A DNA stretch of 64,000 nt from Escherichia coli (GTDB taxonomy: Bacteria; Pseudomonadota; Gammaproteobacteria; Enterobacterales; Enterobacteriaceae), in assembly GCF_030013595.1 (NCBI RefSeq), contig NZ_CP122768.1; one strand, given 5' to 3'. The position numbers and the translations under genes were made by a program. The notes under the pieces were generated by a model. That model searched no databases. It was not told the origin of the DNA and saw only the letters and a program-made list of their open reading frames with translations. The first letter of the stretch is position 1. Every line of letters begins with the position of its first letter. Below are positions 9,926 to 60,339 of the stretch, one piece after another.

Positions 9926-10023
9926 TTTACATCCCGGTAATGCAACAAAAGTTAGAGCTTTTAAACGCTGCTACTATACGCGCGCGATTGAGGTTTGGGA
10001 ATGAGGGCAAGTTAAGGGAGCGT

Positions 10024-10060
10024 AAAAATTTATGGGCCTGTAGCGGCCCATAATTTTTTA
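10024..10060. terminator. bidirectional intrinsic terminator (TATGGGCC-loop-GGCCCATA with T runs)
   Basis: hairpin immediately 3' of ybgE on the minus strand. Confidence 0.6.
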
Positions 10061-10074
10061 AAGAGAATTCTGAG

Positions 10075-10368
10075 TTAAAAGAAGAAGAAAATCAGCCCGA
10101 CAATGAGAACAATATCGGCAAGCAATGGGCAAAAAATCCCTTGCCAAAGAACCTTCTGCGGACGAAAGCCCACGCCGTGAATCACACCAGCACAGACGGC
10201 CCACATCAGCAATAAACCATGCCAGATTTCCAGTTCACTGGTCTTCGCGGCGAAACGTGATGGGTCCCAAAACATACATCCGGCTAACAGAAGCGCCATC
10301 ACGAAGGAAAGCGCCCGCAGGGGGCGCTTGTCCATTACCGCATACAAGGTTGCGATAATCTTACTCAT
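10075..10368 (-). CDS. ybgE: cyd operon small membrane protein YbgE
   Basis: 97-aa hydrophobic ORF downstream of cydX. Confidence 0.9.
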   Translation of the reverse strand: MSKIIATLYAVMDKRPLRALSFVMALLLAGCMFWDPSRFAAKTSELEIWHGLLLMWAVCAGVIHGVGFRPQKVLWQGIFCPLLADIVLIVGLIFFFF

Positions 10369-52788: not shown

Positions 52789-52803
52789 CAGGCCAGCACC
52801 ATG

Positions 52804-52834
52804 CCTGATAAAACGCTCGCTGCGTTTTATCAGG
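52804..52834. terminator. bidirectional hairpin (13-bp stem CCTGATAAAACGC / GCGTTTTATCAGG) between convergent dtpD and phr
   Basis: perfect inverted repeat overlapping the phr stop codon. Confidence 0.55.
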
Positions 52835-54248
52835 CTCCTTTCCTCGCTTCTTCGTACGCTGCCAGCGTTCGCAGCCTTGCCTCTTTATGATCAACTATCG
52901 GTTGCGGATAATCCAGCGTCACACCTGCTTTCTGCGCCCATTTCCACGGCTCATGCACCACTTTCCCTGGCACATCGCGCAGTTCCGGTAGCCACCGGCG
53001 GATAAACTCGCCTTCGCGGTCAAATTTCTCGCCCTGGGTTGTCGGGTTAAAAATACGAAAATACGGCGCTGCATCGGTTCCGGTTGAAGCGGCCCACTGC
53101 CAGCCACCGTTATTGGCTGCCAAATCACCATCAATCAGCTGCGACATGAAATATCGCTCACCTTCGCGCCAGTCGATCAATAAATCTTTCACCAAAAAAC
53201 TGGCTGTAATCATCCGTAGCCGGTTATGCATCCAGCCAGTGGTGTTAAGCTGACGCATGGCAGCATCAACAATCGGGTATCCCGTTTTGCCTTCCTGCCA
53301 GGCCTGTAAATGTGCGGGATTGCTCTGCCACTGCACACGATCCGTCCAGGCAATAAACGGACAATGTTTACACAACGAGGGGTAATACGTCATCAGATGA
53401 CGGTAGAACTCGCGCCAGATCAGCTCACTAAGCCAGACACTACCGGCCCCACCGTCCAGCGCCTGCGGCTGTTCCGCCAACAAGCGATGCAAACACTGGC
53501 GAGGCGATAACCCGCCCGTTGCCAGGCTGGCGGACAAACGACTGGTGCCTTCCACTGCCGGAAAATCTCGTTGTTGCTCATATTCTCCGGCACCGTTCTG
53601 GCAAAACTGGCGTAATTGCGCAATCGCAGCTTTTTCTTCCACCGGGAAATGCGCAGTATCGAGAGGCTGACGAGGATAATTCAGCGTAATGGATGGCGCG
53701 GGATCTATCGATCCACTACTACGTACTTTTGGCGCAGCGACGCACTCCGGCATCCCTTCCCGCAGTCGTTTCAGCCAGGCGTTTTTAAATGGTGTAAAGA
53801 CTTTGTACATCTCATGATTGCCGGTCATCACCGCCCCCGGCGGCAGGATCACGCTGTCATCAAATCCTTCACACACCACGTTACGCAGCGCTCTTTCAAC
53901 TTCCACATCCCGCGCCCGCTCATTCACCTCATACTGATAGTTATAAAACAGATGGGTAACACGATTTTCCGCGCACACCTGTTTAACTATTTCGACGCTG
54001 GCGGCAAAGTCATCCACTTCATGAAACAGCAAAGGAATGCCTTTTTCCGCCAGCGCGATTTGTAGCCCGTTCAGTTGTGCATTGATAAATTCAGCCTGAC
54101 GCGGCGACATATTATGCGCCGCCCACTGGCGTGGGGTAGCGATATACAACGCCAGCACGCGCGCAGACGAATTGCGGCAGGCGGCAGCCAGCGCGAGATT
54201 ATCGTGCTGACGCAAATCCTGGCGAAACCAGACCAGATGGGTAGTCAT
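52830..54248 (-). CDS. phr: deoxyribodipyrimidine photolyase
   Basis: 472 aa with photolyase N-terminal and FAD-binding domains. Confidence 0.96.
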   Translation of the reverse strand: MTTHLVWFRQDLRQHDNLALAAACRNSSARVLALYIATPRQWAAHNMSPRQAEFINAQLNGLQIALAEKGIPLLFHEVDDFAASVEIVKQVCAENRVTHLFYNYQYEVNERARDVEVERALRNVVCEGFDDSVILPPGAVMTGNHEMYKVFTPFKNAWLKRLREGMPECVAAPKVRSSGSIDPAPSITLNYPRQPLDTAHFPVEEKAAIAQLRQFCQNGAGEYEQQRDFPAVEGTSRLSASLATGGLSPRQCLHRLLAEQPQALDGGAGSVWLSELIWREFYRHLMTYYPSLCKHCPFIAWTDRVQWQSNPAHLQAWQEGKTGYPIVDAAMRQLNTTGWMHNRLRMITASFLVKDLLIDWREGERYFMSQLIDGDLAANNGGWQWAASTGTDAAPYFRIFNPTTQGEKFDREGEFIRRWLPELRDVPGKVVHEPWKWAQKAGVTLDYPQPIVDHKEARLRTLAAYEEARKGA

Positions 54249-54754
54249 AAAACTCCTGAATGGCGCAAGTTAATCACACGCGGCCAAAGTTCGAAATAAC
54301 GCTGCCCTGAAAGCCAGGCGTCAGGATAAAGCGCCATATAGTGTTTGATACGCATCAGCGGCGCAAGAAGTGGTTGCTCGCCACGGCGATAACTGTCGAT
54401 AAGCGCAGCCAGCTGCTGGCGTTCTGTGGAATCAATATGAGGGCGAAAATAACCCTGAACGTGCATCAAAACATTGGTGTGGTCACGTCGGTTGGCGGGG
54501 TGAGAAAGCAAAACAACTACGCGTTGGCGGTACTGGTTGTAATAGTCATCCAGATTTTGCCACTGGTGAATATCAGCCACGAACGGGCCAAGTTTGCGGT
54601 ATTCCGGCTGGGAATGAGCCAGAAAGACGAGTTTATAGCGGCTGTGATAATCGAGAAGCGCCCCGCGCGTTAAGCCATGTTCTTTCAGTCGATGTAACTC
54701 ATGAAGCGCGAAGATACGGATTAGAGTGCTGTCATCAAATCGTTGCTGATTCAT
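54245..54754 (-). CDS. ybgA: DUF1722 protein YbgA
   Basis: 169 aa, overlaps phr start. Confidence 0.9.
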   Translation of the reverse strand: MNQQRFDDSTLIRIFALHELHRLKEHGLTRGALLDYHSRYKLVFLAHSQPEYRKLGPFVADIHQWQNLDDYYNQYRQRVVVLLSHPANRRDHTNVLMHVQGYFRPHIDSTERQQLAALIDSYRRGEQPLLAPLMRIKHYMALYPDAWLSGQRYFELWPRVINLRHSGVL

Positions 54755-54882
54755 TACTGCTCCTGAACGGTTTACAGGAGTAAGTGTAGACGTTGGTAAA
54801 TGATGTTTGTGAAGTTAATCCGCTAGCAGGGCAAGATTACGAAAGCGCGCTCCCCGCAAGCAACTCATCAAGGTAGTTAATC

Positions 54883-55176
54883 ATGGCTGAACACAATATT
54901 ACGCCAGAAGTCATCATTTCCAAAACACAGCGCCGCTGTACCGTGGGTTATCTGCCCAACCGCAGCGACACGCCGGTGATCAAAATCAGCGCCAAATGGC
55001 TGAGAGAAGCGGGATTTGAGATCGGCACTGGCGTTACCGTGAAGATCTCGGAAGGTTGCCTGATCCTGCTTGCGGATAACAACGAAGTACAGGAACTGCG
55101 CAGGGAACTGTATCAGGTTAAACAGGCTGTTAAGGGGATGCGTGACGGGATGTTTAGTGTGCTGAACGAGAGTTAA
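54883..55176 (+). CDS. SymE-family (SOS-induced type I toxin-like, AbrB/SpoVT fold) protein
   Basis: 97 aa; RRCTVGY...PVIKISAKWLREAGFEIGTGVTVKISEGCLIL aligns with K-12 SymE (RHVTVGY...[32 protein letters not shown]). Confidence 0.75.
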   Translation: MAEHNITPEVIISKTQRRCTVGYLPNRSDTPVIKISAKWLREAGFEIGTGVTVKISEGCLILLADNNEVQELRRELYQVKQAVKGMRDGMFSVLNES

Positions 55177-55181
55177 ATAAT

Positions 55182-55213
55182 AAAAAAGCCGGGAGATTTA
55201 ATGTCTACCCGGC
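55182..55213. terminator. bidirectional terminator between SymE-like and Rhs immunity genes
   Basis: A6 + GCCGGG...CCCGGC hairpin; reads as hairpin + T6 on the minus strand. Confidence 0.5.
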
Positions 55214-55243
55214 CCACACATTATAATGTGTAAAACATATATT

Positions 55244-55684
55244 CTATTTATTTAAGTATTTTTTAGAGATTCTTAACCACCATGCTTTACCAGAATTAAA
55301 ATTTGAAATTAATACTTTCCCTTTTTTCCTTTTTAAAACATCAAGAATTACAGCATCAGATTTTTTTAATATCCCATCTTCTTGAGGAACACCTAACTCT
55401 ATCAATATATTAATTGAGTCAAATAGATGACCTATCTTTTCATATTCTTCATACAATAAATTACTTTCATTATTCGATATCTGAATTAAGTAATTAAATG
55501 TAACCCCCAAAATATTAGGAAATTTAGAGCTATTGACACTCGATATAAACTCCTGAACAATAGCTCTGTTTTTTAATTTCCCGGCACATAATAAAGCATA
55601 AATATTTCCAGCCAAACGTTCGATATCATGCGGATATCTATATCCTTTAGCAATTATTGCCTTAATTTTCTGTTCAGGAGTCAT
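55244..55684 (-). CDS. putative Rhs immunity protein (146 aa, low GC)
   Basis: AT-rich ORF starting 3 bp after the Rhs stop on the same strand; typical toxin-immunity arrangement. Confidence 0.7.
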   Translation of the reverse strand: MTPEQKIKAIIAKGYRYPHDIERLAGNIYALLCAGKLKNRAIVQEFISSVNSSKFPNILGVTFNYLIQISNNESNLLYEEYEKIGHLFDSINILIELGVPQEDGILKKSDAVILDVLKRKKGKVLISNFNSGKAWWLRISKKYLNK

Positions 55685-55686
55685 TA

Positions 55687-58600
55687 TCAGTACCTCCCGT
55701 TAGGAACAGAAAATCCAGGCAAACGCCTTAGATTTTCCCACGATTCAGGGAAGTGAGTTAAGATCACTGGTGTTTTCCCTATCTGACTTGTTGCAGTAAA
55801 CAAACCTGTTTCAGGATCATAATAGCCTACTCTAGGTTTATTCGTATACCTATCTCTATAAGTAAATTTCCTGCCATTTTGTATCGTGGTTCTTGCACTA
55901 ATATCATATTCTTTTACTGAATTTGCACCGACTTGTGAGCCATGTTTTTCAAAGTGATCTCTTAGGCCCGGCCCATCAACATTTTGTCGTGCTTTATTCC
56001 ATTTTGCATTTTTAGCCGTACCACAAAATAACCCAAGCGGATCGATCCAGCTTAACGGATTTGGCACATAAGCATAGAGGTTCAGCCCACCGTTTAATCC
56101 TATCGGGTCCGTTACCATGAACCGCCCGACATCCGGATCATAGTACCTGTGCAGATTGTAATGCAGCCCCGTTTCCCTGTCGAGGTACTGTCCCTGGTAG
56201 CGCAGGTTCTGCTCCACCCCGCCGTGGTCCTTCTCCTGTATCGTGTTACCCCAGACCTGATACCCCGTCTCCCACACGATTTTCCCGTCGCTGTCCGTCA
56301 TCTCTTCCGGCGCGCCGTTCACATCCGTGTGAAAATACAGTATCCGGTTCGGGCCCTCTTTGCCCGCCTTATCCACCCGCGCCAGCGGTTCATAACTCCC
56401 CGGGTCCCTGTAGATGTACAGGCTGTCTGTTCCCTCCGGCCTGCTCTCCTGCGCCAGCCGCATTCCGTCCCATAAAAATTTTGTCCGGTTGTACGGTTTA
56501 CCGTCAGGACTGATGTGCTGTTTTTCCGTCCGCCTCCCCAGCGCATCGTACACATACCGGTACGTCCCCCGCGCTGTCGTCACTTCCACCATCCGGTGTT
56601 CCGCATCATAACGGTAACTCTGCGTGCCGCTCCGCCCCTCCTTTTCCACCGCACGGCCAAATTCGTCGTAACGGTAGTGCACACCACGGTAAGACATCAG
56701 CCGGTTGAACGGCACCACGCTGTTTTCTGCCGTGGCCCTTTCCCCCGCGCGCCGCGCCAGCAGGTTTCCCGCCGCGTCGTACTGCCAGCTCGCCAGATAC
56801 CCCTCATCCTCCGAGCGGCACGCCGTGATGCGCCCCGTGGGGTCGTAGAAGTAATCCGTTTCCCCCCGCCGGCTGTGCCGCGTCTTCAGCAGTTCATCCT
56901 CGCCACTGTAGCTGTACTGCCGGTCCGTGAACGTCTCCGGTACCCCCCCGCGCATCCCGCTGTATGTCTCCCTGCGCTTCAGCCGCCCGCCGGGGTCGTA
57001 AAGCTGCCGCGTGCTCAGTCGCCCCTGGCTTCTGAGCACTTCACGGTGCAGGGCGTCACGTGTGAACTCGCTGATGACCTCCCGGTCCAGATTTATCTGC
57101 TGGAGATGGCCGCTGCCGTAGTACAGATGACGCTGCGTTCTGCCGTCCGGAAAGGTGGTGGCTGTCCGGTTGCTGAGTTCATCGTACTGATGGGTCAGGA
57201 CGCCCTGCGCCGTCTCCTCAGTCAGCATCCGCCCCAGTCTGTCGTAACTGAAGCGGATAATCTCCGGTGCGTCTGTTTCCCCGGCATCCGACCGTCGGCG
57301 GCGGATTTCCAGTAGCTGGTCTGCCGCATCATGGACGTATTCCGTACGGCTATCGGCTGTCTCCTTTGCCGTAAGCCGGCCCGCCGCATCACGTGCCAGC
57401 CGATGGCGGATTTCACCGCCCCGGTCCCCGGTGAACACCACTTCCGTGACCGCGTTCAGCGCGTTGTAGCGGTACGTCTGGCGGCAGCCGTCCGGATTTA
57501 TCTGCTCCGCCAGACGGTCCAGCACATCATGGCGGAACCGGTAGCTTTCTCCGTTCTCGTTTGTCAGCGTGACCAGACGCCCGTAAGCATCGTACCCGAA
57601 TGCCGTCCTGCGCCCCGTCGCGTCCGTCCGGCTGCGCACCCGGCCCTGCCCGTCCCGCTGCCAGCGCGTTATCCTCCCCATCGGGCTGGTGTACTTCACC
57701 AGCCTGCCCGCCGCGTCCGACTGGTAATTCACCGTGCGGCCGTCCGCCAGTATCACCTCCGTCAGGTGGCCGCTGTCGTCATACCCGTAGCGCGTGCTGT
57801 GGCTCTGCGCGTCTGTCATCCGTATCAGCCGCGTGCGTTCGTCGTAGAACCAGGCCGTCTGCGAGCCGGAACAGTCCGTGTGCCGCATGAGCTGCCCGTC
57901 TTCGTTCCACTGAAGGTATTTATTCCCCCCGCGCGCATCGGTTATCTGCACCACCTGGCCGTGGCGGTCATACTGATACCGGGTGTTCTGCTGCAGCGGG
58001 TCGGTCACCGCAAGAAGATTGCCGCGTTCATCGTACTCACAGCACCAGCTGTTCCCCGCCGCGTCCACCTCCGTTTCCGGCTGGTGCCACACCGGGTGCC
58101 ACTGTGTCTGTGCCACCCGCCCCAGCGGGTCGTGCGTCTCCGTGATATGCCCCTGCCGGTCATACACATAGCGCCATTTGCCGCCCTGCGCATCGGTCAT
58201 TCCCAGTAACAGCCGTTCTTCGTCGCTCCAGCGGAACGTCGTCACCTGCCCGGCTTCGTCCTGGTACGCCGTCACCTGGTTCTGCGCGTCCCACTGATGA
58301 TAACGCGTGCGCCCCAGCCCGTCCGTCACGCACAGCCTGCGTGACGCCAGGCTCCACGCCAGCCGGTACTGTTCACCGCTGTCCGTGTGGTGCCCCGTCA
58401 CCCGCCACGCTGCGTCATCCGGGCCTTCATACCAGCCCCACTGGTAATAATACCCTTCGCCGCCCGGCTGGCGGTGCAGGGTCATGCAGTGGTTTTCGTC
58501 GTAAGCAAACTCGCGCAGCAGGTGTCCCGTGCTGTCGTACACGCCGTTCAGGTCGCCGGCCTCGTCATAGCGGTAACGACGCAGCAGTAAAGGAGCCGTC

Positions 58601-60339
58601 TCAGGGAAATGCTGATAAATCTGTGTCACCCGCCGGGGATGCGCCGCCAGTTCATAATGCAGACGGATGCACGGACGCTGCTGTTCACCGCTGATTTGCG
58701 TGATGCGCCCCAGCTCGTCGTAGTACAGATTCAGACAGTTGCTGTTGCGGTCGCCCAGCATTTTCAGCCGCTGGCGCTGCGGGTGATGCGGGTCGGCCTC
58801 AAACAGAAAAAACTGCCCGTCATCGCTGCTGATAAGCCAGTGCCCCTGCTCACCCCGCCTTACCGCCAGTCCTTCGCCGGGGCTGTAAAACCCGCTCCCC
58901 GGCAGCACGGCCTCCATATCCAGGCGTCGTCCCATGCCCGACACAAAGGTCATACAGTTTTCGTCAGCAGTACCCGGCGTGCGCTCGAGGCTGACTTCAT
59001 ACATCACGCTCCAGCCCTGCCCGAACATCCCTTCCGTGCGGTCGTCACGACTGCTGTACACGCGCTGCCAGTCCAGCGGAAAGTGGCCCGGCAGACTGAA
59101 ATCGAAGTCATCGTCATCCGCCAGATATTTGGCTCCGGTGGCGGCATTGACCGGATGCGGAAGGGCACTGATGGCCTTCTGCGTCATCACCCCCATCCCG
59201 ACACTGGCAGCAAAACAGGCGATTTTAGAAAGCATTTTGCCCGGGCGAAGAAACATCAGCGCCACAGTTGCCACCAGGGTTATCTGCGACCTGCCGCTTC
59301 TGATATCCCTGACCACCAGTAACGGACCGCCAATGCGGACATCCGGTGACACAAACGCCCCGTTCCCCGGCTCATTCACCACCCAGGCCTCGCAGGTGCA
59401 GCGTGCCCCGCTGCGTGCCGCCGGCTGGCTGTTGATACGCACATCCCGCGCGCCTTCCGCGATATATTCCGCTGCGGGCGGTTCATCATCGCCTTTGAAC
59501 AGATTACTGATGCTGCCAATAACCGCATTCACTCCCTGAAAGGCGGTTTCCAGCATACCGCCCGGACTCAGCAGGTTAAGGGCCGTTCCCAGAGGGTCAT
59601 CCAGAAAGGCGGCTTTTTTTTGTGCGAGAAACTGCGTCAGTGAGGAGGGATGTTTATGGCAGTCGATTTTATCGTCAGGGGTCGGGGTGGAGCCCGGGGC
59701 CGCACTGGCCACGGTGGGCTGCCATAGTTCCGACACAAAATGTGTCACGCCATCCACCATTTCAGAACGCCCTTCTTCCGTACTGAGCTGGTCATGCAGC
59801 GCCCGGGACATCAGCACAGGCCCTGTCACCGGGTTAACCGCCAGGGCTATGGCCCCCGCCATTTCCAGATATTCCCCGGCCACATCCCGGAACGTTCTGG
59901 CGTCCTCCTGACGCTGCGCTTCTTCCTGTTCCGCCTTCGCCTGTGCCTCCTGCGCCTCAATGTCCTGCCGCGATGCCGCAGTCGCCGCTGCCCGCGCGGC
60001 AGGTTTGCTGTTGATCCATGTGTCGCCAGAGCCGGTGAGGATGTAACCTTCAATCTGAGGCGGGAAAAGCCAGTTCGCCAGTTGCTCACTTTCCCTACTG
60101 ATTCGGTCATTCCAGCCCTGATACGACATAAATACCGCTGTTGCTATACCGATCGCTAAAATGGTTGAGCAGCCCAGCGTTGCCACTTCAACTCCGCCCA
60201 GCGCCGCCATGGTTCCGACAACCAGAACATCCACCAGGGCTGTGGCGGCAACCTCTACAACTGCCCCCAGCACATCTGCCATAAACGACGTATGCAGCAG
60301 GGCATCACCCTGCCTTGCCGCCCAGAATGCCTCTTCCAT
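55687..60339 (-). CDS. Rhs-family polymorphic toxin: prePAAR motif, TM segments, split PAAR, RHS/YD-repeat shell, C-terminal toxin domain
   Basis: 1550 aa; [10 protein letters not shown] prePAAR motif at residues 7-16; PAAR signatures; [9 protein letters not shown] T6SS-effector N-domain motif; many YD repeats; core ends [27 protein letters not shown] followed by a 113-aa AT-rich tip; positionally equivalent to K-12 rhsC. Confidence 0.9.
   Translation of the reverse strand: [1550 protein letters not shown]

What the first reader, a model, noticed from the sequence alone, without database searches (positions are those of the whole stretch)
54755..55213. SymE-family toxin homologue convergent with the Rhs immunity gene
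The 97-aa ORF aligns well with the K-12 type I toxin SymE, but it lies at the rhs locus rather than at the hsd locus where K-12 symE sits. In K-12, symE is LexA-repressed and silenced by the cis-antisense sRNA SymR that overlaps its 5' end. If the same logic applies here, an unannotated antisense RNA gene should lie on the minus strand across about 54850-54930. I could not identify a convincing LexA box in the 128-bp region shared with the divergent ybgA promoter, so regulation may differ. Placement next to a polymorphic-toxin locus suggests a possible role in the toxin/immunity system.
Basis: partly seen in the sequence, partly recalled or inferred. Interest (0 to 1): 0.45.

Follow-up and report, generated by a model that had tools for sequence, protein, structure and literature searches.

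The report
Rhs-linked SymE gene, decayed SymR antisense
This is a real, intact copy of a known small DNA-binding "toxin" gene (SymE family) that routinely marks the far end of Rhs toxin/immunity cassettes in enteric bacteria, and only a damaged remnant of its antisense-RNA partner is left, so it is a fairly ordinary leftover of a mobile module rather than a new system.

Summary
ORF 54883-55176 (+, 97 aa) is a SymE-family gene (Pfam PF08845, E 2.4e-14). It is 44% identical to K-12 SymE but is not its orthologue. It lies between ybgA and an Rhs tip/immunity pair, and there is no LexA box.

RefSeq already annotates the identical protein. It belongs to a distinct Rhs-linked SymE subfamily. In 21 of 26 loci from 12 or more genera, an Rhs core lies on the opposite strand 0.6-2.8 kb downstream.

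In complete form the gene follows a Cro/cI-type HTH gene on an integrase-primase backbone placed directly after the Rhs tip. These complete copies carry a two-hairpin SymR homologue, supported by covariation and by Rfam symR hits.

The window keeps:
- the ORF, which is under purifying selection (dN/dS 0.02-0.44);
- a predicted antisense promoter with K-12 SymR geometry (-35 at 54918-54923, -10 at 54896-54901, predicted start 54888);
- an imperfect hairpin 1.

Hairpin 2 is deleted, and the remnant folds no better than shuffled sequence.

The predicted antisense gene is therefore only partly supported. Linkage to rhs is strongly supported, but it looks like mobile-cassette hitchhiking rather than a role in toxin or immunity function. 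This is a new member of a known kind, of moderate interest.

The parts
54883..55176 (+). SymE-family coding sequence, 97 aa. MazE/AbrB-like domain at residues 16-62, followed by a long C-terminal helix at residues 67-96.
   Evidence: - ORF list.
- Pfam PF08845, E 2.4e-14.
- NCBIfam SymE equivalog scores only 46 bits against a cut-off of 132.
- dN/dS is 0.02-0.44 among 97-aa alleles.
- AF2 model has pLDDT 73.8; the best PDB matches are MazE, AbrB and VapB.
54871..54876 (+). Shine-Dalgarno-like AGGTAG, 6 nt upstream of the ATG.
   Evidence: Read from the sequence. AGG is invariant, and the TAGTTAATC that follows is the majority reading, in the 8 sequences aligned.
54896..54923 (-). Predicted antisense (SymR-type) promoter inside codons 5-14: -35 TTGGAA at 54923->54918, a 16-nt spacer, and -10 TAATAT at 54901->54896. 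The predicted start is A at 54888.
   Evidence: - The geometry matches the K-12 SymR promoter and its annotated 5' end: TAGAAT-7 nt-A of CAGTCAT in K-12, TAATAT-7 nt-A of CAGCCAT here.
- The -10 varies as TAATAT, TAGAAT or TACAAT, with T1, A2, A5 and T6 invariant in 14 of 14 copies.
- Synonymous differences occur in 3-6% of same-residue pairs in codons 1-12, against 19-64% elsewhere.
- dS is about 0 in codons 1-14, against 0.8-2.1 in the rest of the gene.
- The site matches only 8 of 12 consensus positions, so the generic scan did not list it. No transcript data exist.
54842..54888 (-). Remnant of a SymR-homologous antisense RNA. It has the hairpin-1 region (anti-start codon and anti-SD) with three non-standard pairs, and the base of hairpin 2 with the 30-nt interior deleted.
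   Evidence: - Model R1 hit: 30.8 bits, E 7.6e-4 over 671 kb and 8e-7 locally. The alignment shows GAGC*[0]*GCG where the model has 30 positions.
- MFE is -17.4 kcal/mol, z +0.63.
- Rfam symR gives no hit here.
54755..54841 (.). ybgA-proximal part of the spacer. It is core E. coli sequence and is shared with K-12.
   Evidence: The alignment with the region upstream of K-12 ybgA runs up to a mutated start remnant (CATAGCTG). After that, K-12 diverges into the ybfD region.
55182..55231 (-). Two hairpins (55216-55231 and 55188-55213) followed by a U-run (55187->55182). This is an intrinsic terminator for the convergent rhs-immunity transcript, and it ends on the SymE stop codon.
   Evidence: Fold of 55250->55165: -21.3 kcal/mol, z -3.06, with the hairpin followed by UUUUUUAUUAUUU. 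The repeated SymE block in other E. coli genomes extends to about 55202-55213.
55244..55684 (-). 146-aa ORF immediately after the Rhs gene. It is presumed to be the cognate immunity gene, on position alone.
   Evidence: ORF list. No NCBIfam or Pfam family matches. It is 97% identical to the terminal orphan-module ORF of strain AR_0077.
55687..60339 (-). Rhs protein of 1550 aa. The core ends near residue 1437, and residues 1438-1550 form the variable toxin tip.
   Evidence: ORF list. tblastn shows core homology up to residue 1437 across genera. The tip has only a non-significant Ntox47 match, E 0.16.

Best explanation
**What it is.** The ORF is an intact, selectively maintained member of a distinct Rhs-linked subfamily of SymE. 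SymE is a MazE/AbrB-fold protein; in K-12 it is a non-specific DNA-binding protein that condenses the nucleoid and is growth-inhibitory when over-made.

**Where the subfamily sits.** It marks the distal (3') boundary of Rhs C-terminal toxin/immunity cassettes across Enterobacterales. In its complete form it is the second gene of a Cro/cI-HTH-SymE operon. That operon carries a SymR-type cis-antisense RNA and lies on an integrase-primase backbone directly behind the Rhs tip and immunity gene.

**What is left in the window.** The backbone has been lost. The surviving pieces next to ybgA are:
- the SymE ORF;
- its Shine-Dalgarno sequence;
- about 40 nt of 5' leader;
- the antisense promoter inside codons 5-14;
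- a damaged SymR body, with hairpin 1 imperfect and hairpin 2 deleted.

**Inferred working.**
- SymE synthesis is kept low because the operon promoter, which sits upstream of the HTH gene in complete copies, is gone.
- Antisense transcription starting at about 54888 would cover the SD and AUG. With no terminator hairpin, it would run on towards ybgA.
- Any read-through of the convergent rhs-immunity terminator would also be antisense to the whole ORF.
- Regulation is not by LexA/SOS.

**Shown:** family membership, linkage to rhs, purifying selection, nucleotide-level constraint on the first 12-14 codons, homology and structure of the SymR-like RNA in complete copies, and its decay here.

**Inferred:** promoter activity, the existence of any transcript, the DNA-binding and toxic activity of this paralogue, and its past membership of the mobile backbone.
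For: **Family membership**
- Searches place the protein in the SymE family.
- In the fold search, MazE, AbrB and VapB are the top matches.
- K-12 SymE is now annotated as nucleoid-associated. The literature supports this (PMC11894785, which cites Thompson 2022).

**Linkage to rhs**
- 21 of 26 loci of this subfamily, from 12 or more genera, have an Rhs core or core-end fragment on the opposite strand 0.57-2.8 kb downstream. One more locus abuts an Rhs core.
- Arrays carry up to 9 interleaved copies (L021).
- E. coli, Shigella, Salmonella and Erwinia examples are.

**Complete unit**
- Integrase, DnaG-type primase (920-989 aa), HTH_3/19/31 protein, SymE, then immunity gene and Rhs tip on the opposite strand.

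**Selection**
- dN/dS is 0.02-0.44.
- The first 12 codons have 3-6% synonymous differences, against 19-64% elsewhere.

**Antisense RNA in complete copies**
- The region aligns with K-12 symR, including the -10, the 5' end and the CCGCG(C/T)T tail.
- A two-hairpin fold of -34 to -40 kcal/mol is predicted in all 9 complete copies. It is 9-19 kcal/mol more stable than the sense strand.
- 13 of 28 pairs show compensatory changes, 97.7% of cells are paired, and 0 of 500 shuffles reach this.
- An independent sequence, L025, scores 72.9 bits.
- Rfam symR hits L041 at 50.5 bits and L038 at 47.6 bits, at exactly the predicted coordinates.

**State in the window**
- document the decayed remnant.
- K-12 retains the same leader remnant next to ybgA. 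The SymE gene is therefore the ancestral end of this rhs island.
Against: - No expression data exist for either strand.
- The antisense promoter matches only 8 of 12 consensus positions. Sites that weak are common by chance, and the generic scan found none.
- No credible sense promoter is visible in the 128-bp spacer. The ORF may therefore be silent, which sits awkwardly with dN/dS well below 1.
- The toxicity and DNA binding of this paralogue are untested. Its C-terminal region (one long helix) differs from that of K-12 SymE.
- The window contains no HTH, primase or integrase homologue. Derivation from the mobile backbone is inferred from other genomes.
- The selection estimates rest on few, closely related sequences.
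Confidence: 0.55

Rival explanations
1. One reading: a complete, working SymE/SymR type I toxin-antitoxin pair. A stable small antisense RNA silences the toxin mRNA, and the pair has been co-opted to act with the Rhs toxin/immunity system, for example as a back-up stress or self-intoxication response.
For: - The ORF is intact and under purifying selection.
- The antisense promoter geometry and the anti-SD/anti-AUG segment are preserved.
- In Salmonella, a cis-antisense RNA (IsrA) opposite a gene of this family shows inverse expression (PMC2330248). Rfam isrA maps antisense to SymE coding sequences above its gathering score.
- Linkage to Rhs is tight.
Against: - Hairpin 2, the 3' stability/terminator hairpin conserved with covariation in every complete copy and in K-12, is deleted here. 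Hairpin 1 is weakened, and the fold is no better than shuffles.
- Rfam symR gives no hit here.
- Most copies inside Rhs arrays are truncated or carry stop codons, which is not expected of a part needed by each toxin/immunity pair.
- Complete copies travel with an integrase-primase backbone rather than with the T6SS genes.
Confidence: 0.15
2. A functionless relic. The ORF is a promoter-less leftover of the mobile backbone that has simply not yet decayed. The 5' nucleotide conservation is inherited rather than maintained.
For: - No sense promoter is found.
- The HTH gene and its upstream promoter are absent.
- Most sister copies in arrays are pseudogenes.
- K-12 and most E. coli have lost the gene at this site.
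- The subfamily occurs in only 220 of 5426 complete E. coli genomes.
Against: - Among ybgA-locus solo copies and close relatives, dN/dS is 0.02-0.44 at dS of 0.03-0.27. The reading frame is intact in every ybgA-locus copy examined (window, L004, L043, L049-L052), even though the neighbouring immunity genes and tips differ.
Confidence: 0.15
3. The conserved 5' end is a DNA-level recombination feature, not an RNA gene. It would serve as a downstream homology arm or site for swapping the tip-immunity-SymE cassette. The protein would be incidental.
For: - At the same ybgA site, alleles share near-identical first codons and leader, then diverge to about 64% protein identity together with different immunity genes and tips.
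- Many truncated copies break at codons 11-13. There, a conserved 175-nt block replaces the 5' end.
- Rhs core remnants after the integrase start at a fixed residue, 1411-1413. This shows that site-specific events do shape these loci.
Against: - In codons 1-14 the changes are non-synonymous while synonymous ones are absent.
- The variable positions of the hexamer are those least important for a -10.
- The structure is specific to the antisense strand, being 9-19 kcal/mol more stable than the sense strand, with G-U pairs. It is homologous to the experimentally defined SymR.
- A test for an attachment-site duplicate of the 175-nt block on the far side of the integrase found none.
Confidence: 0.1
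4. The protein is a sequence-specific AbrB/MazE-type transcription regulator, for example of the convergent rhs-immunity operon, of the divergent ybgA-phr operon, or of excision of the integrase-primase backbone. On this reading it is not a toxin.
For: - The fold class is that of DNA-binding regulators and antitoxins.
- The gene sits between two transcription units and, in complete copies, next to an HTH regulator.
Against: - The only characterised relative binds DNA without sequence specificity (PMC11894785).
- Array-internal copies decay although their immunity genes remain.
- No repeated operator-like motif was noticed in the flanks. This was not tested systematically.
Confidence: 0.05

Closest known systems
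E. coli K-12 SymE/SymR (type I toxin-antitoxin; Kawano et al. 2007, PMC1891008; SymE re-described as a nucleoid-condensing DNA-binding protein by Thompson et al. 2022, cited in PMC11894785)
   Same: - Same Pfam domain, 44% identity over 68 residues.
- The antisense promoter sits inside the first codons with identical spacing to the start codon.
- Complete relatives have the homologous two-hairpin antisense RNA.
   Different: - It is not the orthologue: NCBIfam scores 46 bits against a cut-off of 132.
- It lies at an rhs locus, not at the hsd/mcr locus.
- It has no LexA box.
- It has a shorter N-terminal tail and a single long C-terminal helix.
- Here the antisense RNA has lost hairpin 2.
- In complete relatives, an HTH gene and a SymR-like RNA co-exist. 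Kawano et al. treated a transcription factor and a small RNA as alternatives.
Salmonella IsrA / STM0294.1n sense-antisense pair (Padalon-Brauch et al. 2008, PMC2330248); Rfam isrA RF01385
   Same: - Rfam isrA lies on the strand antisense to SymE-family coding sequence. It scores 122, 111 and 80 bits in Salmonella, Erwinia and Shigella copies and 31.8 bits at window 54928-55046 (-).
- The paper reports a 423-nt cis-antisense RNA with expression inverse to its target.
   Different: - The window scores below the family's gathering score of 51.
- I inferred that STM0294.1n is a SymE-family gene from the Rfam mapping. I did not check this on the LT2 sequence.
- IsrA is long and spans the whole gene, unlike SymR.
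HTH-SymE operons next to primase-helicase genes and RHS/haemagglutinin genes (Kawano et al. 2007, Fig. 7)
   Same: The same neighbourhood types are seen here: HTH-SymE, a primase, and Rhs.
   Different: - The window has only the SymE gene.
- The integrase, the fixed Rhs core remnant after it, and the SymR homologue in these operons are not in the passages of that paper that I read.
Shigella flexneri Ssr1 (Wang et al. 2016, PMC4782007); Rfam RF02627
   Same: - It also lies just downstream of an Rhs gene.
- The last 272 positions of the 654-nt Rfam model align to window 54913-55184 (-), antisense to the ORF.
   Different: - The mapped 5' end (286979, which is model position 131) and the size of about 150 nt place the real RNA in model positions 27-382. 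These are absent from the window.
- The score is 271 bits against a gathering score of 820.
Rhs orphan tip/immunity arrays and 'C-terminal displacement' (Jackson et al. 2009; Koskiniemi et al. 2014; cited from my own knowledge, not read here)
   Same: - The locus type is the same: a main Rhs followed by displaced tips with short core remnants.
- The window's tip and immunity gene equal the terminal orphan of strain AR_0077.
   Different: As far as I know, those descriptions do not treat the SymE-family gene as a regular cassette boundary.

Membership tests
SymE family (Pfam PF08845) | Significant match to the SymE_toxin profile | tested here: met
   E 2.4e-14, 53.6 bits, residues 16-62 covering model positions 1-52 of 54.
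SymE family (Pfam PF08845) | MazE/AbrB swapped-hairpin DNA-binding fold | tested here: inconclusive
   The AF2 monomer has pLDDT 73.8. The top Foldseek PDB matches are MazE (prob 0.95, E 0.11), the MazE-DNA complex, AbrB and VapB, but none has E <= 0.001. A PDB sequence-profile search found nothing relevant.
K-12 SymE orthologue group (NCBIfam NF010128 equivalog) | Score at or above the curated cut-off of 132 bits | tested here: not met
   46.1 bits.
SymE/SymR type I toxin-antitoxin system | Cis-antisense RNA gene overlapping the SD and start codon, with its promoter in the first codons | tested here: inconclusive
   - The promoter-like hexamers and start context are in K-12 register.
- Model R1 scores 30.8 bits at 54842-54888.
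- Rfam symR gives no hit at E <= 10.
- No transcript data exist.
SymE/SymR type I toxin-antitoxin system | Stable two-hairpin antisense RNA | tested here: not met
   - The interior of hairpin 2 is deleted and hairpin 1 has three non-standard pairs.
- MFE is -17.4 kcal/mol, z +0.63, against -35.8 kcal/mol, z -4.62 for an intact copy.
SymE/SymR type I toxin-antitoxin system | LexA (SOS) operator upstream of symE | tested here: not met
   No match in the spacer.
SymE/SymR type I toxin-antitoxin system | Growth inhibition or nucleoid condensation on over-production; Lon-dependent turnover | not testable with these tools
   This needs an experiment.
Rhs C-terminal tip/immunity cassette (as a regular boundary component) | Conserved position: convergent, immediately after the immunity gene of an Rhs tip | tested here: met
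   - Window layout.
- 21 of 26 subfamily loci have an Rhs core or core fragment 0.57-2.8 kb downstream on the opposite strand.
- The four uninformative contigs either end within 1.2 kb or carry only immunity-like genes.
Rhs C-terminal tip/immunity cassette (as a regular boundary component) | Functional contribution to toxin delivery or immunity | not testable with these tools
   There is indirect evidence against: array-internal copies are mostly truncated or disrupted.
Integrase-primase-HTH-SymE backbone | HTH gene upstream in the same operon, with primase and tyrosine recombinase beyond it | tested here: not met
   tblastn with the E189 HTH, primase and XerC-like proteins finds nothing in the window. 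ybgA abuts the leader.
Rfam isrA (RF01385) / Ssr1 (RF02627) | Score at or above the gathering threshold | tested here: not met
   isrA scores 31.8 bits against 51. Ssr1 scores 271 bits against 820, with model positions 27-382 missing.

The most novel reading that the evidence does not exclude
The HTH-SymE-SymR module may be the maintenance and regulation module of an integrase-primase element that inserts site-specifically at the 3' end of the rhs core, about 25 codons before the core/tip junction. By doing so it would deliver a new toxin tip plus immunity gene and displace the old one. On this reading, the SymE genes that punctuate Rhs arrays, including the window's copy, are footprints of successive insertions. 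This would give a concrete vehicle for Rhs 'C-terminal displacement'. It would also mean that the sRNAs IsrA and Ssr1 are products of these footprints.
Probability: 0.35. Interest if true: 0.7.

Novelty: new member of a known kind. Interest (0 to 1): 0.4.

Why it matters
For the window itself, little changes. RefSeq already names the gene, its family is known, and its antisense partner is a remnant.

The wider pattern is more useful, in four ways.
1. It shows that a SymR-type antisense RNA is conserved, with covariation, in the HTH-linked, Rhs-associated SymE genes of several genera.
2. It shows that the Rfam families isrA and Ssr1 map antisense to SymE-family coding sequence.
3. It gives annotators a reliable landmark for the end of an Rhs tip/immunity cassette.
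4. It points to an integrase-primase backbone with a fixed Rhs core remnant. This could explain how new Rhs toxin tips are acquired, a mechanism that, to my knowledge, has not been settled.

Tried and rejected
- **Rfam Ssr1 hit as evidence for an antisense RNA.** The hit is strong (271 bits). I rejected it because the RNA's mapped 5' end and size fall in the part of the model that is missing from the window.
- **Generic promoter/terminator scan of 54500-55500.** It found no minus-strand promoter at 9 or more of 12 matches, and only a weak terminator-like site inside the coding sequence. This was not informative.
- **LexA box searches.** Negative.
- **Rfam symR on the window.** No hit.
- **Attachment site inside the 5' end of SymE.** The idea was that the integrase element's attachment site lies there, with the conserved 175-nt block as the other junction. 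blastn found that block only in array-internal copies, and not on the far side of the integrase in L002. Rejected.
- **Family searches of the neighbours.** NCBIfam and Pfam gave nothing significant for the immunity-like ORF or the Rhs tip.
- **PDB sequence-profile search with the family alignment.** No relevant hit.
- **Literature searches for an Rhs-linked integrase/primase element.** Nothing was found in the held library. This does not show that the element is undescribed.
- **Six 'MATT...'-type SymE relatives (L010, L012, L018, L020, L029, L032).** They are not Rhs-linked and were set aside as a different subfamily.
Full report
**1. The observation**

The window is E. coli. An identical 601-bp stretch occurs in three complete genomes. 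ORF 54883-55176 (+) encodes 97 aa. To its left, separated by 128 bp, is divergent ybgA (54245-54754, -; NCBIfam 349 bits). To its right, convergent, are a 146-aa ORF (55244-55684, -) and a 1550-aa Rhs gene (55687-60339, -).

The protein matches Pfam SymE_toxin (E 2.4e-14). It aligns with K-12 SymE at 44% identity over 68 residues (E 3e-16). K-12 symE/symR lie between mcrB and hsdS. No LexA-box-like sequence lies in the spacer.

The gene is not unannotated. RefSeq calls the identical protein 'SymE family type I addiction module toxin'. It is also not the K-12 orthologue: NCBIfam's SymE equivalog scores 46 bits against a cut-off of 132.

**2. What the protein looks like**

An AlphaFold model built on 43 relatives has moderate confidence (pLDDT 73.8). 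It shows a short helix, a beta-hairpin and one long C-terminal helix at residues 67-96. Its best PDB matches are MazE, a MazE-DNA complex, AbrB and AbrB-type VapB. The E-values are weak (0.1-0.7), but the hits are consistently of one fold class.

K-12 SymE, first reported as an RNA-cleaving toxin, is now described as a non-specific DNA-binding protein whose over-production compacts the nucleoid and kills. This comes from PMC11894785, citing Thompson et al. 2022, and from the K-12 annotation. I assume the same kind of activity here. It is untested.

**3. Linkage to rhs**

A scan of one genome per bacterial species with the family alignment returned 33 loci.
- Six have a different N-terminus ('MATT...') and no Rhs within 10 kb. 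One is a 22-residue match. I set these seven aside.
- Of the other 26, 21 have an Rhs core or core-end fragment on the opposite strand 0.57-2.8 kb downstream of the SymE gene. This is the space of one tip plus one or two small ORFs.
- One more locus abuts an Rhs core.
- The remaining four contigs end within 1.2 kb, or carry SUKH-type immunity-like ORFs.

The genera include Escherichia, Entomohabitans, Kosakonia, Citrobacter, Enterobacter, Superficieibacter, Atlantibacter, Rahnella, Trabulsiella, Phytobacter and Leclercia, plus two unnamed Enterobacteriaceae. Arrays can hold many copies; L021 has nine, interleaved with Rhs core-end fragments.

In E. coli the subfamily is present in 220 of 5426 complete genomes. 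It occupies 717 places, a median of three per genome, all chromosomal.

The association of SymE genes with RHS genes was already drawn in Kawano et al. 2007. It has also been mentioned in passing for Erwinia and Pantoea. The linkage is therefore real and strong, but not new.

**4. The complete module**

The same unit recurs in E. coli E189 (twice), Salmonella enterica and Erwinia pyrifoliae (in tandem). In the direction of rhs transcription, the order is:
- Rhs tip;
- immunity gene;
- SymE (convergent);
- a Cro/cI-type HTH gene, about 80 nt upstream of SymE on the SymE strand;
- a 920-989-aa DnaG-type primase;
- a tyrosine recombinase.

Citrobacter sedlakii has a deleted version.

After each recombinase comes an Rhs core remnant. 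It always starts at residue 1411-1413 and ends at the core end, residue 1437, and is followed by an older tip. The window has none of the backbone genes.

At the same ybgA site, other E. coli strains, an Escherichia species and Shigella flexneri carry intact solo SymE genes of 97, 105 or 109 aa. These sit next to different immunity genes and tips. K-12 keeps only the leader, up to a mutated start codon, before the ybfD H-repeat region begins. SymE is therefore the ancestral terminal gene of this rhs island.

**5. Is the ORF maintained?**

Among 97-aa alleles, dN/dS is 0.02-0.44 at dS of 0.03-0.27. All ybgA-locus copies examined are intact. By contrast, most array-internal copies lack the first 10-50 codons or contain stop codons. 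The terminal copy thus behaves like a gene under purifying selection, and the displaced copies like debris.

**6. The antisense question**

*Synonymous-site constraint.* Across 14 full-length copies, synonymous differences occur in 3-6% of same-residue pairs in codons 1-12, against 19-64% elsewhere. Pairwise dS in codons 1-14 is about 0-0.2, while the rest of the gene has dS of 0.8-2.1 between genera. Within the 97-aa group, codons 1-14 show only non-synonymous changes. Something other than the protein constrains these nucleotides.

*Promoter geometry.* On the minus strand they read TTGGAA, 16 nt, TAATAT, 7 nt, then A of CAGCCAT. K-12 reads TAGAAT, 7 nt, then A of CAGTCAT, and that A is the annotated SymR 5' end. 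The hexamer varies as TAATAT, TAGAAT or TACAAT, with positions 1, 2, 5 and 6 invariant in 14 of 14 copies.

*RNA structure in complete copies.*
- Downstream of that start, every HTH-linked copy folds like K-12 SymR into two hairpins, at -34 to -40 kcal/mol.
- 13 of 28 pairs show compensatory changes, 97.7% of cells are paired, and 0 of 500 shuffles reach the observed values. Slid controls collapse.
- The antisense strand is 9-19 kcal/mol more stable than the sense strand.
- A covariance model built from these sequences finds an independent Erwinia copy at 72.9 bits.
- Rfam's own symR model hits two Salmonella copies at exactly the predicted coordinates, at 50.5 and 47.6 bits.

Complete members of this subfamily therefore carry a SymR homologue in addition to an HTH gene.

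**7. What is left in the window**

The model hits 54842-54888 (-) at 30.8 bits (E 7.6e-4 over 671 kb, 8e-7 locally). Hairpin 1 has three non-standard pairs. The 30 interior positions of hairpin 2 are missing, giving GAGC|GCGCUUU. The same truncation is present in all ybgA-locus copies.

The stretch folds at -17.4 kcal/mol with z +0.63, against -35.8 kcal/mol and z -4.62 for an intact copy. Rfam symR gives no hit here.

Its promoter looks intact, but its RNA body has lost the 3' hairpin. A transcript from 54888 would cover the SD and AUG. With no terminator, it would continue towards ybgA, which lies on the same strand.

**8. Other antisense leads**

*Ssr1.* The Rfam Ssr1 hit (271 bits) is misleading. 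The model is a 654-nt predicted intergenic region. The mapped 5' end (model position 131) and the size of about 150 nt place the real RNA in a segment absent from the window.

*isrA.* The Rfam isrA family lies antisense to SymE-family coding sequence, above its gathering score, in Salmonella, Erwinia and Shigella copies. It scores 31.8 bits in the window. The paper reports a 423-nt cis-antisense RNA with expression inverse to its target. This is precedent for long antisense transcription across such genes.

*Terminator.* In the window, the rhs-immunity transcript ends at two hairpins plus a U-run (55231-55182) that abut the SymE stop codon. Any read-through would be antisense to the whole ORF.

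**9. Verdict**

The finding is a real SymE-family gene of an Rhs-linked subfamily. It is most likely the surviving end of an HTH-SymE-SymR module that travels with Rhs tips. It has a decayed SymR partner and no SOS control. A direct role in toxin or immunity function is not supported.

The window feature is a new member of a known kind, and its interest is moderate. The more interesting lead is the integrase-primase backbone with a fixed Rhs core remnant, but that lies outside the window.

Noticed in passing
L002:9100-25100; L038:1190-6660; L046 and L048 (whole loci); L007:7880-11078: A conserved backbone sits directly behind Rhs tip/immunity pairs in E. coli, Salmonella, Erwinia and Citrobacter. 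It consists of a tyrosine recombinase, a DnaG-type primase, a Cro/cI-type HTH gene and SymE. After each recombinase, an Rhs core remnant starts at the same residue (1411-1413 of the window Rhs) and ends at the core end (1437). This looks like site-specific insertion that displaces the old tip.
   Followed up: partly
L038:6072-6200 (-), L046:7072-7200 (-), L043:7072-7188 (-); window 54928-55046 (-): Rfam isrA (RF01385) matches, above its gathering score, the strand antisense to SymE-family coding sequence in Salmonella, Erwinia and Shigella. The family therefore appears to describe the antisense strand of a protein-coding gene.
   Followed up: partly
window 54913-55221 (-): The Rfam Ssr1 model (RF02627) is the whole 654-nt predicted intergenic region of Shigella. 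Its last 272 positions are antisense to a SymE-family gene. The experimentally mapped RNA of about 150 nt lies elsewhere in the model.
   Followed up: yes
L001:10400-10575, and homologous blocks in L005, L006, L017, L019, L021, L031, L033, L035: In many array-internal copies, a conserved non-coding block of about 175 nt replaces the leader and first 11 codons of SymE. It lies directly upstream of the next Rhs core fragment. Its function is unknown; it may carry a promoter for the orphan tip and immunity genes.
   Followed up: partly
L037:11855-12001 (K-12, between ybfD and ybgA): K-12 retains the SymE leader, up to a mutated start codon (CATAGCTG), next to ybgA. The SymE gene was therefore lost there when the H-repeat (ybfD) region arrived.
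   Followed up: yes
window 55244-56140, compared with L001:9545-10443: The window's main Rhs tip and its immunity-like ORF are 95-97% identical to the terminal orphan module of strain AR_0077. That strain's main Rhs carries a different tip. The window locus therefore looks like a derivative in which the core has been joined to a former orphan.
   Followed up: partly
L010, L012, L018, L020, L029, L032 (SymE match at about 9950-10260 in each): A second SymE subfamily, with an N-terminus 'MATT(L/P)TQT...' and found in Limnobaculum and Kluyvera, is not next to Rhs genes. L018 lies beside ParA-, DnaB- and ParB-like genes, which suggests a different island type.
   Followed up: no
L043:4779-4966: Rfam ES036 (CssrF) and naRNA4 (REP-type) matches lie between dtpD and phr in Shigella. 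The corresponding window region (about 52790-52830) was not examined.
   Followed up: no
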